Assembly: GCA_905199855.1 (NCBI GenBank)
Contig: CAJKHY010000004.1
Location: 2,449-66,448, forward strand
Direction of reading: 5' to 3'
From: an uncultured Clostridium sp.
Lineage (GTDB): Bacteria > Bacillota_I > Bacilli_A > RF39 > UBA660
Length of the DNA stretch: 64,000 nt
Shown here: in pieces, positions 18,569-20,928 of the stretch
Layout of the letters: every line of letters starts with the position of its first letter
Numbering within the stretch: position 1 is the first letter of the stretch
Notes under the pieces: model-generated
Databases searched by the model: none
Told to the model about the DNA's origin: nothing
Seen by the model: only the letters and a program-made list of their open reading frames with translations
Position numbers and translations under genes: made by a program

Positions 18569-20353
18569 TTATAGTCCACCACCACTGCCAAATGATTCTA
18601 ATTCTTCGTCAGTAACTATTACGTTGATACGCATTCTTCTATTACCACATACGAACAAAGCTTCTCCTTGGCTATATCTTTTAATACTATCTATTTCATT
18701 ATCATTTAGGTCAATTAATTTTGCTAAGTCATCTACTGCCTGTTTTTTTAGTCCCATGACTAAGTAATAAGAGGCATTATCAAATATTGCTTTACCATGT
18801 ATCAATACATCTGGTGCTGCAAAGTCAGATGGTTGTTGGGTTATAATAATTGTTCCAGTATTGTATTTTCTTGCACGTCTTTGCATTTGTGCTAAAAATT
18901 CTGCCCCTAAAACATTTCTTGCTCCAAGTAATACATGGGCTTCGTCTACTGACATTATTGAGTTAACATTTGGATTCAAACATAAGCCCCATGCAAATTT
19001 AAGAACGTTAAATAATAATGCGTTTCTTATATTTTCGTCAGCATTCATTAATTCTTTTATGTTAAATACTATGAAATCACTTGATGTTGCAATTGAAGTA
19101 TGTCCATTGAAATAGTATTTTAATTCTCTTGTTAATGGTCTTATTTTTAATTCTAGCCTTTCCATGACATCTCTTTCATGAGTTTTTTCTGTCATAGCAG
19201 TTAATCTTCCTTTAATTGTTGCATATACATCTTGAAAAATCGGAAAATCCTTAGATGTAAATTTAGAAAAATCTGTGTTATAATCGATTCCAAATCTTAT
19301 ATATGTATCTTGTACTACTTCACTAAACAAAGTTAGGACATCTTCTTCAATGTTCGGATCATAATATTTCATGAAGGCTTTTAATGACTGAATCGTTTTG
19401 GTTAATACAGTATAGCCTAAACCTGATTTTATTTCGTCTTCGTCGGCATCCATAACTATTTCTAGTGGGTTTACCATGCCAAATTCTCCACCTTTACCTA
19501 GGTCCACTACTTCTCCACCATACATTTTTGTCATTTCTGTTATTTCACCTTCTGGGTCAATGGCTACGATTTGGTATCCATTTCTTATATGGCTTCTTAA
19601 TAATAGTTTTGCGGCAGTGGATTTACCACTTCCTGATGTTCCTAAGATAATCATGTTGGCATTATTTCTATTGTTTTCTTTTTTTAATTGGTATAAGAAT
19701 TGATTAAATAGAATAACACCACCCGAGAAATCTACTCCTAGTAATGTTGATAAGCCTGTGTCTTTTATACTATCAAAAATGAATGGATACATGGCTGCCA
19801 TAGTAGGAGATGGCATTGGAGTACCAATACGCATTTCTATTGGTTGAGCATCAAATATTGGTAATATTGATTTTAACACGCTTTCTTGTTCAAACTTTAA
19901 TGGTATAGCTCTTAATTCCATTGCATCTAAGTAATTTTTTAATGTTAATTTTTTTATTTCTAGGTCTTCTCTAGTGTCCGCGGTTATCATGATGTGCATT
20001 TGAAAGTCAAATGTTCTTGTTTGGGCTGCGGTAAACTGTTGAATAAAGTATTCTAGGGAGTCAACATCTTGTCTTATTCTTTCTTGTATTGTTTTATCGT
20101 GTTCATCTTGATATTTTTGTTTTAAATCGGCTATTTCTTTATTTAACATTTTAGCTAGAACTGAAAATGGTAGAGGCATATGCTTTATTACTACTTTTAC
20201 GCCTGACATATTTGTTAGGCTTGATAAATATCCTGGCCCTATAAATCTAGGATATGATATTACTGTTAATATTGTTGCATATTTATCACTGATGTTAAAA
20301 TCTGATGGATTAAATTGTAATCCTTTTGGCGCTAATTGAGATTTTAAATTCAT
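18569..20353 (-). CDS. VirB4/TrsE/TcpF-type T4SS ATPase, C-terminal ATPase portion (594 aa)
   Basis: Walker A ILGTSGSGKSTAAKLL, Walker B SVDEAHVLL, VirB4 middle-domain signature PKGLQF...DKYATILTVISYPRFIGPGYLSSL. Confidence 0.8.
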   Translation of the reverse strand: MNLKSQLAPKGLQFNPSDFNISDKYATILTVISYPRFIGPGYLSSLTNMSGVKVVIKHMPLPFSVLAKMLNKEIADLKQKYQDEHDKTIQERIRQDVDSLEYFIQQFTAAQTRTFDFQMHIMITADTREDLEIKKLTLKNYLDAMELRAIPLKFEQESVLKSILPIFDAQPIEMRIGTPMPSPTMAAMYPFIFDSIKDTGLSTLLGVDFSGGVILFNQFLYQLKKENNRNNANMIILGTSGSGKSTAAKLLLRSHIRNGYQIVAIDPEGEITEMTKMYGGEVVDLGKGGEFGMVNPLEIVMDADEDEIKSGLGYTVLTKTIQSLKAFMKYYDPNIEEDVLTLFSEVVQDTYIRFGIDYNTDFSKFTSKDFPIFQDVYATIKGRLTAMTEKTHERDVMERLELKIRPLTRELKYYFNGHTSIATSSDFIVFNIKELMNADENIRNALLFNVLKFAWGLCLNPNVNSIMSVDEAHVLLGARNVLGAEFLAQMQRRARKYNTGTIIITQQPSDFAAPDVLIHGKAIFDNASYYLVMGLKKQAVDDLAKLIDLNDNEIDSIKRYSQGEALFVCGNRRMRINVIVTDEELESFGSGGGL

Positions 20354-20928
20354 TTCTTAATCACCGTCCCAAATTCAGTATTCATTCCTCCATTTAGGAA
20401 GTTTTCAATAATTGATCTTAGATCAGAATTGGATGTTTGTGTTGCCGTTAATCCAGCGTTGGCTAGTCCCATCATAATTGTTCTTAGTCTTTTTTGAATT
20501 ACTTCAGGATTTTTTTCTTTAAATAACAAGAAATATTCAGTATCTGTAACGTTGTTATCCATAAACATATTTGCTTTTTGTAAGTCTTGCATTATCATTT
20601 TTCTTATGATTGTACTATTTACTGAGTTATATAATAGTTGTAATTGAGCTAAGTATGCTGATATATCTACTGGTCTATCTGCTGAAATTATCCAAAATTC
20701 AAAATCTAGTGTATTATAGAAATTTTTTAATGCTACGATAACATTTTCTTGGGTAATTTGGTCTAAGATAAAGATATTTCTTGGAGTAATTTTTACCCCT
20801 GTTACTTTCATATTATTATCTAAGACAATTGTCCCATTTGCTATTGCTTTTATTGGTAGCCAGTCTTCTGTATATTTTGAATTAATTTTTTGCTTTTTCT
20901 GCTTCATATTCTTTAATGAATCGTTCAT
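20350..20928 (-). CDS. VirB4 N-terminal domain encoded as a separate 192-aa ORF (stop/start overlap ATGA at 20350..20353)
   Basis: DWLPIKAIANGTIVLDNNMKVTGVKITPRNIFILDQ matches the conserved N-terminal motif of Gram-positive VirB4 homologs (Tn916 Orf16 / ConE / TcpF). Confidence 0.6.
   Translation of the reverse strand: MNDSLKNMKQKKQKINSKYTEDWLPIKAIANGTIVLDNNMKVTGVKITPRNIFILDQITQENVIVALKNFYNTLDFEFWIISADRPVDISAYLAQLQLLYNSVNSTIIRKMIMQDLQKANMFMDNNVTDTEYFLLFKEKNPEVIQKRLRTIMMGLANAGLTATQTSNSDLRSIIENFLNGGMNTEFGTVIKK

What the first reader, a model, noticed from the sequence alone, without database searches (positions are those of the whole stretch)
18569..20928. VirB4 ATPase encoded as two translationally coupled ORFs (192 aa N-domain plus 594 aa ATPase) joined by an ATGA overlap
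The N-terminal conserved VirB4 motif (DWLPIKAIANGTIVLD...ITPRNIFILD) and the ATPase body (Walker A/B) are in different frames. The first ORF stops with TGA overlapping the ATG of the second (20350..20353). Each half has an intact start and stop, so this looks like a maintained gene split rather than a random frameshift. A recent frameshift pseudogene or a sequencing error remain possible.
Basis: seen in the sequence. Interest (0 to 1): 0.6.

Follow-up and report, generated by a model that had tools for sequence, protein, structure and literature searches.

The report
Conserved two-gene (split) VirB4 secretion ATPase
The motor ATPase (VirB4) of a type IV secretion system is here encoded as two overlapping genes rather than one; this is a real, selected and widespread arrangement, already known from staphylococcal plasmids as TrsD plus TrsE, not an error or a dead gene.

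Summary
Two minus-strand ORFs, 20350-20928 (192 aa) and 18569-20353 (594 aa), share an ATGA overlap. They match adjacent parts of fused VirB4 profiles (NF045975 positions 92-276 and 294-893).

The split is not an error or a fresh pseudogene.
- All 85 related loci examined are split. They cover 80 species-level genomes with 60-98% identity in the small ORF.
- They show six junction geometries in three relative frames.
- Both halves are under purifying selection (median dN/dS 0.18 and 0.13).
- A GGTG Shine-Dalgarno core lies 7-11 nt before the second start in 83 of 83 junctions.
- That core is built from fixed rare codons (Thr ACG 70/70, Val GTG 71/71).

The architecture is already known. TrsD of pGO1-type plasmids is described as a remote homologue of the VirB4 N-terminus (PMC12102498). 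I found the same small-plus-short pair in pIP501-like, pLS20-like, pXO2, pBMB67 and Sulfobacillus plasmids.

Most likely mechanism: coupled translation yields two polypeptides. I infer, but have not shown, that they reassemble into a VirB4-like motor. The break sits in a variable linker inside the N-terminal domain.

Verdict: new member of a known kind, of modest interest. Side note: the cluster is chromosomal and syntenic, with no relaxase or coupling protein in the window.

The parts
20350..20928 (-). ORF1, 192 aa: a free-standing N-terminal module of VirB4. It is TrsD-like and carries PF26593 'TraC-like'.
   Evidence: NF045975 positions 92-276, E 1.3e-14. Homologues down to about 45% identity are about 190-235 aa, and the closest ones carry PF26593. 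The AF2 model has pLDDT 81 with disordered tails at 1-19 and 183-192. The 14 best PDB Foldseek matches are all TrwK/VirB4 of R388. hhalign against S. aureus TrsD gives 94% probability, E 1e-7.
18569..20353 (-). ORF2, 594 aa: a 'short' VirB4, comprising the second half of the N-terminal domain plus the ATPase C-terminal domain.
   Evidence: NF045975 positions 294-893, E 6.8e-104. Pfam P-loop_TraG, AAA_10 and DUF87. Aa 200-592 match 4AG5 with E 5e-53. The 120 best homologues are 589-595 aa.
20350..20353 (-). ATGA stop/start overlap (ORF1 TGA, ORF2 ATG).
   Evidence: The same geometry occurs in 38 of 85 loci. The others are TAATG (34), -11 nt (7), -8 nt (4), +1 nt (1) and +3 nt in frame (1).
20362..20365 (-). 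GGTG Shine-Dalgarno core for ORF2, 8 nt upstream of its ATG, embedded in the ORF1 codons for the conserved FGTV motif (20362-20373).
   Evidence: GGTG is present 7-11 nt upstream in 83 of 83 junctions, against 14% of random 20-nt windows inside ORF2. Thr is ACG in 70 of 70 loci, whereas ACG is 5% of Thr codons in ORF2. Val is GTG in 71 of 71.
19619..19642 (-). Walker A motif GTSGSGKS (ORF2 aa 238-245).
   Evidence: Invariant G/GK columns in the alignment with fused VirB4s.
18935..18949 (-). Walker B region VDEAH (ORF2 aa 469-473).
20882..21223 (-). 113-aa protein with two hydrophobic segments, in the position of VirB3/PrgI. It overlaps the ORF1 start by 47 nt.
   Evidence: Hydrophobic segments at 14-45 and 47-70. 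The gene in the same position is annotated as PrgI family in pBMB67 and in the L. paracasei plasmid. No direct family hit, so the assignment rests on position and topology only.
21242..23071 (-). 609-aa multi-pass membrane protein, VirB6/TrbL-like.
   Evidence: BLASTP E 2e-39 to the L002 protein that carries PF19597 TrbL_4. At least five hydrophobic segments.
16479..18536 (-). 685-aa protein with a C-terminal CHAP domain (weak match, below Pfam's gathering cut-off). It occupies the cell-wall hydrolase (VirB1-like) slot directly downstream of ORF2.
   Evidence: Pfam CHAP E 2.3e-4, 22.0 bits against the 26-bit cut-off. The same position is held by CHAP, C40 or lysozyme proteins in the plasmid systems.

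Best explanation
This is a naturally split VirB4 type IV secretion ATPase.

The upstream gene encodes roughly the first half of the VirB4 N-terminal domain as a free 192-aa protein, a distant relative of TrsD/TraD. The downstream gene encodes the rest of the N-terminal domain plus the ATPase domain.

Both genes lie in one tightly packed operon: VirB6-like, VirB3-like, ORF1, ORF2, then a cell-wall hydrolase. A ribosome finishing ORF1 at TGA meets the ORF2 ATG inside the ATGA overlap. A GGTG Shine-Dalgarno core sits 8 nt upstream, so ORF2 is made by termination-coupled initiation and the two products appear together.

The break falls in a linker that varies in length in fused VirB4s, so no structural element is lost. 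I infer that the two polypeptides reassociate non-covalently into a VirB4-like unit. I also infer that the free N-module supplies the membrane-proximal surface that VirB3 wraps in the R388 structure.

Shown here: the split, its conservation, selection on both halves, the conserved ribosome-binding site, and collinearity with fused VirB4. Inferred: translational coupling in vivo, reassembly of the two chains, and the VirB3-docking role.
For: - Coordinates and overlap.
- Collinear profile matches, 92-276 and 294-893 of NF045975.
- Alignment of the concatenated ORFs with fused VirB4s (P0331, P0361, CD1110-family) puts the break in a variable-length linker, between the conserved F-x-N and P-x-x-L-x-F motifs. 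Nothing is missing.
- All 85 loci are split, from 80 species-level genomes plus the window, two metagenome contigs and two plasmids. There are six junction geometries and three relative frames.
- ORF1 homologues are about 190-235 aa down to about 45% identity, and the 120 best ORF2 homologues are 589-595 aa.
- dN/dS medians over 2,495 pairs are 0.18 for ORF1 and 0.13 for ORF2.
- GGTG is present in 83 of 83 junctions at a 7-11 nt spacing. Thr ACG 70/70 and Val GTG 71/71 are fixed despite 29% GC.
- The ORF1 fold matches only TrwK/VirB4 in the PDB at high probability.
- The same small-plus-short pair occurs in pGO1-type (TrsD + DUF87), pIP501-like, pLS20-like, pXO2, pBMB67, Sulfobacillus pL15 and a Mycoplasmatota plasmid.
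- For pLS20-like, pXO2, pBMB67 and the Mycoplasmatota plasmid, the small ORF hits VirB4 profile positions about 91-279.
- The Sulfobacillus small ORF is linked only by tblastn and hit no family.
- Published statement that TrsD is remotely homologous to the VirB4 N-terminus: PMC12102498.
- VirB3 wraps the VirB4 N-terminal domain, residues 15-400, in R388: PMC9259494.
Against: - No direct evidence that the two proteins bind each other. The AlphaFold model of the concatenated chain failed (pLDDT 41.5 with a 3-sequence alignment).
- ORF1 gets no hit to the curated TrsD/TraD model NF041427, even at E<=1. Its link to TrsD rests on one profile comparison (94%) and on shared matches to VirB4 profiles.
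- The Foldseek matches to TrwK have low TM-scores (0.34-0.41, rmsd about 7 A).
- Translational coupling is inferred from sequence geometry only. With a good Shine-Dalgarno site, ORF2 could also initiate independently.
- The published view is that TrsD has no assigned function.
Confidence: 0.8

Rival explanations
1. Sequencing or assembly error, or a fresh frameshift pseudogene of a normally single ~790-aa virB4 gene.
For: A single-base insertion in the ORF1 tail restores one continuous 786-aa ORF that is collinear with fused VirB4s.
Against: - An identical ORF1 sequence is on 13 independent contigs from three sources (P0001).
- All 85 loci are split, with six different junction geometries in three relative frames. 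No single indel explains that.
- dN/dS is well below 1 for both halves.
- No homopolymer longer than 4 nt lies within 60 nt of the junction.
- The ribosome-binding site for ORF2 is conserved.
Confidence: 0.01
2. Programmed ribosomal frameshifting: ribosomes slip at the overlap to make a full-length fused VirB4, with the two ORFs being alternative products.
For: ORF2 is in the -1 frame relative to ORF1, with an A-rich run (AAGAAATGA) at the junction.
Against: - There is no X_XXY_YYZ slippery heptamer at the junction.
- The bases just before the overlap differ freely among ATGA-class loci.
- Relatives place ORF2 in the +2, +1 or even the same frame. pBMB67 has TAA-aat-ATG in frame.
- ORF2 always has its own start codon and Shine-Dalgarno core.
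Confidence: 0.03
3. ORF1 descends from the VirB4 N-terminus but is now an independent accessory factor. It might be an assembly chaperone, a VirB3 partner or a regulator, and it would not rebuild a VirB4 fold with ORF2.
For: - The literature assigns TrsD no function, and many Gracilibacteria TrsD genes are not next to virB4 (PMC12102498).
- ORF1 evolves somewhat faster than ORF2 (dN/dS 0.18 against 0.13; identity about 60-75% against 71-86%).
- Some short VirB4s (C. perfringens plasmids L088, L094) have no recognisable N-module gene upstream.
Against: - Adjacency and overlap are strict in 85 of 85 loci.
- The ORFs are collinear with fused proteins, with nothing lost.
- Fused and split forms are interleaved in the ATPase tree. 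The module has therefore moved between the covalent and free states while staying with the ATPase.
Confidence: 0.15

Closest known systems
TrsD + TrsE of Staphylococcus pGO1/pSK41 (MPF_FATA, pGO1 subclass); NCBIfam NF041427 'TrsD/TraD family conjugative transfer protein'
   Same: - A ~200-227-aa protein is encoded immediately upstream of a 'short' (~600-670-aa) VirB4 ATPase, after the VirB3-like gene and before the hydrolase.
- TrsD is described as a remote homologue of the VirB4 N-terminus (PMC12102498).
- The ORF1-family profile aligns to TrsD over 160 columns at 94% probability.
- The break point is the same.
   Different: - ORF1 does not hit NF041427 at all.
- ORF2 is only about 26% identical to TrsE.
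- In pGO1-type plasmids the two genes are separated by about 10-20 nt rather than overlapping.
- Those systems sit on conjugative plasmids with a relaxase and a coupling protein. This locus has neither in 64 kb.
Mbov_0397 family ICE conjugal transfer ATPase (Mycoplasma/Spiroplasma ICE VirB4; NF045975)
   Same: It is the best-scoring curated family for both halves (E 1.3e-14 and 6.8e-104). The operon order is the same, with membrane protein genes upstream.
   Different: That family is a single fused ~840-894-aa protein with an extra N-terminal membrane segment. Neither half here reaches the 590-bit equivalog cut-off (52.9 and 348.3 bits).
Patescibacteria (CPR) chromosomal T4SS with TrsD, VirB4, VirB3 and VirB6 (PMC12102498)
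   Same: A TrsD-like gene is associated with virB4. The locus is chromosomal in a reduced-genome lineage, and the coupling protein is usually not adjacent. Here there is no relaxase or T4CP in the window, and synteny is conserved.
   Different: The phylum is different: record titles here are Bacilli, Tenericutes and Clostridium sp. CAG:762. I did not test direct homology of this locus to the CPR clade.
pLS20, pXO2/pAW63-type and pBMB67 plasmid T4SS of Bacillus
   Same: An unannotated 192-227-aa 'hypothetical protein' lies directly upstream of a 630-659-aa VirB4. These small proteins hit VirB4 profile positions about 91-279, as ORF1 does.
   Different: They have 3-16-nt intergenic gaps or an in-frame stop rather than an overlap. 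Their ATPases fall in different clades. They are plasmid-borne.
VirB3-VirB4 fusions in some MPF_T systems
   Same: They show that gene boundaries around the VirB4 N-terminus are evolutionarily fluid (mentioned in PMC4027160).
   Different: The direction is opposite (fusion rather than fission), and the boundary is a different one.

Membership tests
VirB4/TraC/CagE T4SS ATPase | C-terminal RecA-like ATPase domain with Walker A and Walker B, homologous to solved VirB4 C-terminal domains | tested here: met
   ORF2 aa 200-592 against 4AG5, E 5e-53. GTSGSGKS and VDEAH are present. Pfam P-loop_TraG, AAA_10 and DUF87 are above cut-off.
VirB4/TraC/CagE T4SS ATPase | N-terminal domain and ATPase domain on one ~800-aa polypeptide | tested here: not met
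   There are two ORFs with an ATGA overlap. Together they are collinear with fused VirB4.
VirB4/TraC/CagE T4SS ATPase | Score above the curated whole-protein cut-off of an NCBIfam VirB4 model | tested here: not met
   The best is NF045975 at 348.3 bits against a 590 cut-off. TIGR00929 gives 69 against 643. These values fit a divergent, truncated member.
VirB4/TraC/CagE T4SS ATPase | Encoded next to VirB3-like and VirB6-like membrane proteins | tested here: met
   The 609-aa protein is homologous to a TrbL_4 protein. The 113-aa two-segment protein is in the PrgI slot, assigned by position and topology only.
TrsD/TraD family (NF041427) | Match to the family HMM | tested here: not met
   No hit at E<=1 for ORF1, whereas S. 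aureus TrsD scores 1e-67, the pIP501-like TraD 1e-30 and the pBMB67 ORF 3e-10.
TrsD/TraD family (NF041427) | Remote homology to TrsD and to the N-terminal part of VirB4 | tested here: met
   hhalign against TrsD gives 94%, E 1e-7 over 160 columns. NF045975 positions 92-276. The pBMB67 ORF hits both TrsD and VirB4 models and so bridges them.
TrsD/TraD family (NF041427) | Gene immediately upstream of a short VirB4 in a T4SS operon | tested here: met
Pfam PF26593 'TraC-like' | Match to the Pfam model | tested here: inconclusive
   Precomputed PF26593 is recorded for the identical protein P0001 and nearly all listed homologues. The local Pfam copy returned no family for ORF1 even at E<=10. It may lack the model.
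Self-transmissible conjugative element (ICE or plasmid, MPF_FATA) | Relaxase and VirD4-type coupling protein encoded with the T4SS | tested here: not met
   Neither is found among the ORFs of 100 aa or more scanned across the 64-kb window. Several small cluster ORFs gave no hit, and some ORFs were not scanned. There are none in the +/-10 kb of syntenic relatives. Genes elsewhere in the genome cannot be excluded.
Programmed -1/+1 frameshift genes (dnaX- or prfB-type) | Conserved slippery site and fixed frame relation between the two ORFs | tested here: not met
   Junction sequences vary, and the relative frame is +2, +1 or 0 in different relatives.
Frameshift pseudogene | Relaxed selection and sporadic occurrence among relatives | tested here: not met
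   dN/dS is 0.18 and 0.13. The split is present in 85 of 85 loci.

The most novel reading that the evidence does not exclude
The split or fused state of VirB4 may have switched repeatedly at one and the same interdomain linker across Bacillota T4SS lineages. In this gut reduced-genome Bacilli (RF39-like) lineage, the split VirB4 may belong to a vertically inherited chromosomal T4SS that lacks a relaxase and a coupling protein. That would parallel the Patescibacteria T4SS and imply a role other than self-transfer, such as DNA uptake or cell-cell interaction. The free N-module would then act as a separately tunable adaptor between the membrane channel and the motor.
Probability: 0.3. Interest if true: 0.55.

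Novelty: new member of a known kind. Interest (0 to 1): 0.3.

Why it matters
**Annotation.** Genome annotators and T4SS typing tools usually label the small ORF 'hypothetical'. They may score the short ATPase below family cut-offs or flag the pair as a frameshift. Recognising the pair as one functional VirB4 avoids false pseudogene calls in thousands of gut Bacilli genomes. The same applies to well-studied plasmids (pLS20-like, pXO2, pBMB67), where the upstream ORF is still unannotated.

**Mechanism.** It gives TrsD/TraD, which has 'no function assigned', a concrete and testable role as the detachable first half of the VirB4 N-terminal domain.

**Evolution.** Fused and split forms interleave in the tree, which marks a permissive break point in an otherwise universal T4SS protein.

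None of this overturns current understanding.

Tried and rejected
- **The search for related loci with A2.** I repeated the search with the closer alignment A3.
- **First dN/dS script.** The Biopython version timed out. I replaced it with my own NG86 code.
- **hhalign of the ORF1-family profile.** Comparisons with single upstream ORFs of the pIP501-like, pLS20-like and pXO2 plasmids and of a C. perfringens plasmid were not significant.
  - Homology of the first three to TrsD or to the VirB4 N-terminus was shown instead by NCBIfam profile hits.
  - The C. perfringens upstream genes (RNase H family, topoisomerase) are not N-modules.
- **AlphaFold of the concatenated ORF1+ORF2.**
  - Alignment A5, with unpaired halves, was misaligned by MAFFT, so I dropped it.
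  - The 3-sequence alignment A6 ran but gave an unusable model (pLDDT 41.5). There is therefore no structural test of reassembly.
- **Local Pfam copy.** It returns no family for ORF1, not even PF26593, and may lack that model.
- **Literature.** Searches for an explicit 'split VirB4' description found only the TrsD remark in PMC12102498. Two recent T4SS papers, a nomenclature review and a 2026 pIP501 TraF study, do not mention the pIP501/pGO1-type TraD/TrsD protein.
- **Rejected readings.** Programmed frameshifting and sequencing error are treated under the rivals.
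Full report
**1. Observation.**
The minus strand carries ORF1 at 20350..20928 (192 aa) and ORF2 at 18569..20353 (594 aa). The TGA of ORF1 overlaps the ATG of ORF2 as ATGA at 20350-20353.

ORF2 has Pfam P-loop_TraG, AAA_10 and DUF87. It carries Walker A (GTSGSGKS, aa 238-245) and Walker B (VDEAH, aa 469-473). Its residues 200-592 align to the crystal structure of the Thermoanaerobacter VirB4 C-terminal domain (4AG5, E 5e-53).

Against NCBIfam NF045975 (Mbov_0397 family ICE VirB4, 894 positions), ORF1 covers positions 92-276 (E 1.3e-14). ORF2 covers positions 294-893 (E 6.8e-104).

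One refinement is needed. ORF2 still has about 200 residues ahead of the ATPase domain. The VirB4 N-terminal domain spans residues 15-400 in R388 TrwK (PMC9259494). ORF1 is therefore only about the first half of that domain.

**2. Error, pseudogene or maintained split?**
A single inserted base in the ORF1 tail does give a continuous 786-aa ORF. Comparative data can.
- *Length of homologues.* The closest ORF1 homologues (down to about 69% identity) are 183-214 aa, and an identical ORF1 lies on 13 contigs from three sources. The 120 best ORF2 homologues, down to 80% identity, are 589-595 aa.
- *Exhaustive representative search.* Free-standing proteins of about 180-235 aa persist down to about 45% identity (P0243, P0253). 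Further ~180-240-aa hits occur at 27-34% (P0284, P0351, P0353, P0357, P0374, P0382). I did not check whether those are complete genes or lie next to a VirB4. Clearly fused relatives appear at about 30% (P0331, 839 aa; P0361, 800 aa).
- *One genome per species.* The scan gave at least 557 genomes with a relative. I analysed the best 80 (60-98% identity), the window, two metagenome contigs and two plasmids. All 85 are split.
- *Junction geometries.* There are six: ATGA (38), TAATG (34), 11-nt overlap (7), 8-nt overlap (4), 1-nt gap (1) and, in B. thuringiensis pBMB67, an in-frame TAA-aat-ATG (1). The relative frame of ORF2 is +2, +1 or 0.
- *What this excludes.* No single indel or slippery site can account for this variety. 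That rules out an assembly artefact and a conserved programmed frameshift.
- *Homopolymers.* No run longer than 4 nt lies within 60 nt of the junction.
- *Selection.* Over 2,495 pairs with usable dS, median dN/dS is 0.18 for ORF1 and 0.13 for ORF2 (NG86). For the window against Clostridium sp. CAG:762 (L005), dS is about 0.22-0.24 with dN/dS 0.07 and 0.01.

**3. How the second ORF is translated.**
A GGTG core lies 7-11 nt upstream of the ORF2 start in all 83 junctions of the gut-lineage family, and at 8 nt in 69 of them. Only 14% of random 20-nt windows inside ORF2 contain an SD-like tetramer (GGTG, GGAG, GAGG or AGGT).

The core is built from the ORF1 codons for a conserved G-T-V near its C-terminus. 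Thr is ACG in 70 of 70 loci, although ACG makes up only 147 of 2,785 Thr codons in ORF2. Val is GTG in 71 of 71. The window is 29% GC. This is selection at the nucleotide level for a Shine-Dalgarno site.

In the window the core is at 20362-20365. The distant plasmids also have strong SD-like strings before the second start: GAGGAGG in Sulfobacillus and GAGGGAG in pBMB67.

The stop/start overlap or close juxtaposition is preserved throughout. Taken with the conserved site, the best reading is termination-coupled initiation that yields the two chains together. This is inferred from sequence and has not been measured.

**4. Where the break falls.**
I aligned the concatenated ORF1+ORF2 with fused VirB4s: P0331, P0361, an L. 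paracasei CD1110-family protein and a Spiroplasma Mbov_0397 protein. The break (...EFGTVIKK | MNLKSQLAPKGLQF...) lands in a segment of variable length and sequence.

That segment lies between a conserved F-x-N motif and the invariant Pro of a P-x-x-L-x-F motif. No conserved column is missing.

The AlphaFold model of ORF1 (15-sequence alignment, pLDDT 81) has a well-folded alpha/beta core at residues 20-180 and a disordered tail at 183-192. Its 14 best Foldseek matches in the PDB are all TrwK/VirB4 chains of the R388 T4SS. Their probabilities are 0.98-1.00 and their E-values run from 2e-4 to 3e-2, but TM-scores are only 0.34-0.41.

In R388, VirB3 wraps around the VirB4 N-terminal domain, and that domain mediates VirB4 dimerisation (PMC9259494). 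I therefore infer that the free module is the membrane-proximal, VirB3-facing part.

**5. Comparison with what is known.**
The arrangement is not new in kind. In S. aureus pGO1/pSK41-type plasmids, trsD (227 aa, NCBIfam 'TrsD/TraD family') lies directly upstream of a 670-aa DUF87 ATPase, TrsE. The same holds in L. plantarum plasmids and in a pIP501-like Inc18 enterococcal plasmid, with 209 aa followed by a 653-aa TrsE.

[quoted passage not shown] It adds that TrsD is confined to the pGO1 subclass of MPF_FATA, has no assigned function, and has 2,272 homologues in Patescibacteria, 1,664 of them next to virB4.

My tests tie the window to this family only loosely.
- The ORF1-family profile aligns to TrsD at 94% probability, E 1e-7.
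- The curated TrsD model does not hit ORF1 at all.
- The pBMB67 upstream ORF hits TrsD (3e-10), the Mycoplasma VirB4 model (2e-6) and TIGR00929 VirB4_CagE positions 3-136 (8e-6). It therefore bridges the groups.

Unannotated upstream 'hypothetical proteins' also hit VirB4 profile positions about 91-279, the same segment and the same end point as ORF1:
- pLS20-like plasmid: 192 aa;
- pXO2: 222 aa;
- a Mycoplasmatota plasmid: 295 aa.

The split is thus more widespread among Bacillota T4SS than the quoted 'pGO1 subclass only'. Precomputed Pfam annotation already names the ORF1 family PF26593 'TraC-like'.

**6. One origin or several?**
I built a rough neighbour-joining tree of the ATPase part (18 sequences, 569 columns, 100 bootstraps).
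- The window lineage is sister to the fused P0331 (100%).
- The fused P0361 sits inside a group of split plasmid systems (99%).
- The TrsE clade is next to the fused CD1110 family (96%).

Fused and split forms are interleaved, so fission or fusion has probably happened more than once at this linker. A fragment at 40% identity to ORF1 (P0260) also runs on into ORF2-like sequence. The tree is small, distance-based and midpoint-rooted, so this is a lead and not a result.

**7. Context.**
The operon on the minus strand runs in this order:
- 267 aa (23088-23891);
- 609-aa VirB6/TrbL-like protein, homologous at E 2e-39 to a TrbL_4 protein;
- 113-aa protein with two hydrophobic segments in the PrgI/VirB3 slot, overlapping ORF1 by 47 nt;
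- ORF1;
- ORF2;
- 685-aa CHAP protein, a weak Pfam match (E 2.3e-4, 22.0 bits against a 26-bit cut-off);
- 283 aa;
- M23 peptidase;
- two related ~250-aa proteins;
- 186 aa;
- an internalin-like repeat protein.

No relaxase, VirD4-type coupling protein or integrase was detected among the ORFs I scanned across the window. The flanks are housekeeping genes: TypA, DacA, a Mur ligase, tRNA synthetases, PolA, Lon and ThiI.

The same order, from HTH and Mur ligase through to ClpB, is kept in relatives with 73% ORF1 identity. The locus therefore looks chromosomal and vertically inherited rather than part of a recognisable ICE. In this it resembles the Patescibacteria situation. Whether it mediates conjugation cannot be decided here.

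**8. Verdict.**
It is a new, distant member of a known kind: a TrsD-like N-module plus a short VirB4.

What remains unproven is physical reassembly of the two chains. My attempt to model the concatenated protein failed (pLDDT 41.5). Interest is modest. Its value lies mainly in correct annotation, in a testable role for TrsD/TraD, and in the side observation of a relaxase-less chromosomal T4SS in this gut lineage.

Noticed in passing
window 11209-23891 (-), flanks 1-11000 and 24000-64000: The T4SS-like gene cluster has no detected relaxase, VirD4 coupling protein or integrase among the ORFs scanned across the 64-kb window. It is flanked by housekeeping genes (TypA, DacA, Mur ligase, aaRS genes, PolA, Lon). 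The same gene order, from HTH and Mur ligase through to ClpB, is kept in relatives with 73% ORF1 identity (L098, L099). It looks like a vertically inherited chromosomal T4SS and resembles the Patescibacteria case in PMC12102498.
   Followed up: partly
window 2927-4222 (+) and 24131-25426 (+): Two 431-aa ORFs of equal length encode an IS30-family transposase (NF033563 E 1e-24; HTH_38). The second lies between the Mur ligase gene and the T4SS cluster, a place that is empty in the syntenic relatives L098 and L099. I did not compare the two copies or look for their ends.
   Followed up: no
window 20882-20928 (-): The 113-aa VirB3/PrgI-position ORF overlaps the annotated start of ORF1 by 47 nt (26 nt if ORF1 starts at Met8). 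Relatives show similar 41-62-nt overlaps (L001, L002, L098). The true ORF1 start is not settled.
   Followed up: no
window 12973-13695, 13701-14465, 15658-16509 (-): Three proteins of 240, 254 and 283 aa cross-hit the same three L098 proteins (238, 244 and 270 aa) in BLASTP. They form a small paralogous family of unknown function inside the cluster. The hydrophobicity scan was run only on the 283-aa member, which has an N-terminal hydrophobic segment. None has a family hit.
   Followed up: no
L088 1760-4336 and L094 306-4333 (C. perfringens plasmids): These short (632-aa) VirB4 homologues have no recognisable N-module gene upstream. An RNase H family gene or a topoisomerase gene sits there instead, and hhalign is not significant for the former. 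Either the N-module is encoded elsewhere or these ATPases work without it.
   Followed up: partly
L011, L028, L032, L052, L055, L062 (genome-contig hits): Contigs carrying this Bacilli-type locus at 64-72% ORF1 identity are filed under MAGs labelled Methanobacteriaceae, Muribaculaceae or Paludibacteraceae. This most likely reflects binning contamination rather than transfer. I did not check it.
   Followed up: no
L091 1855-2433, L092 1762-2430, L003 4938-5621, L095 1709-2383: In pLS20-like, pXO2 and pBMB67 plasmids the VirB4 N-module homologue is annotated only as 'hypothetical protein' in RefSeq. A B. thuringiensis 134-kb plasmid (L095) has a 224-aa hypothetical in the same slot, which I did not test. 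The 'pGO1 subclass only' distribution quoted for TrsD seems too narrow.
   Followed up: partly
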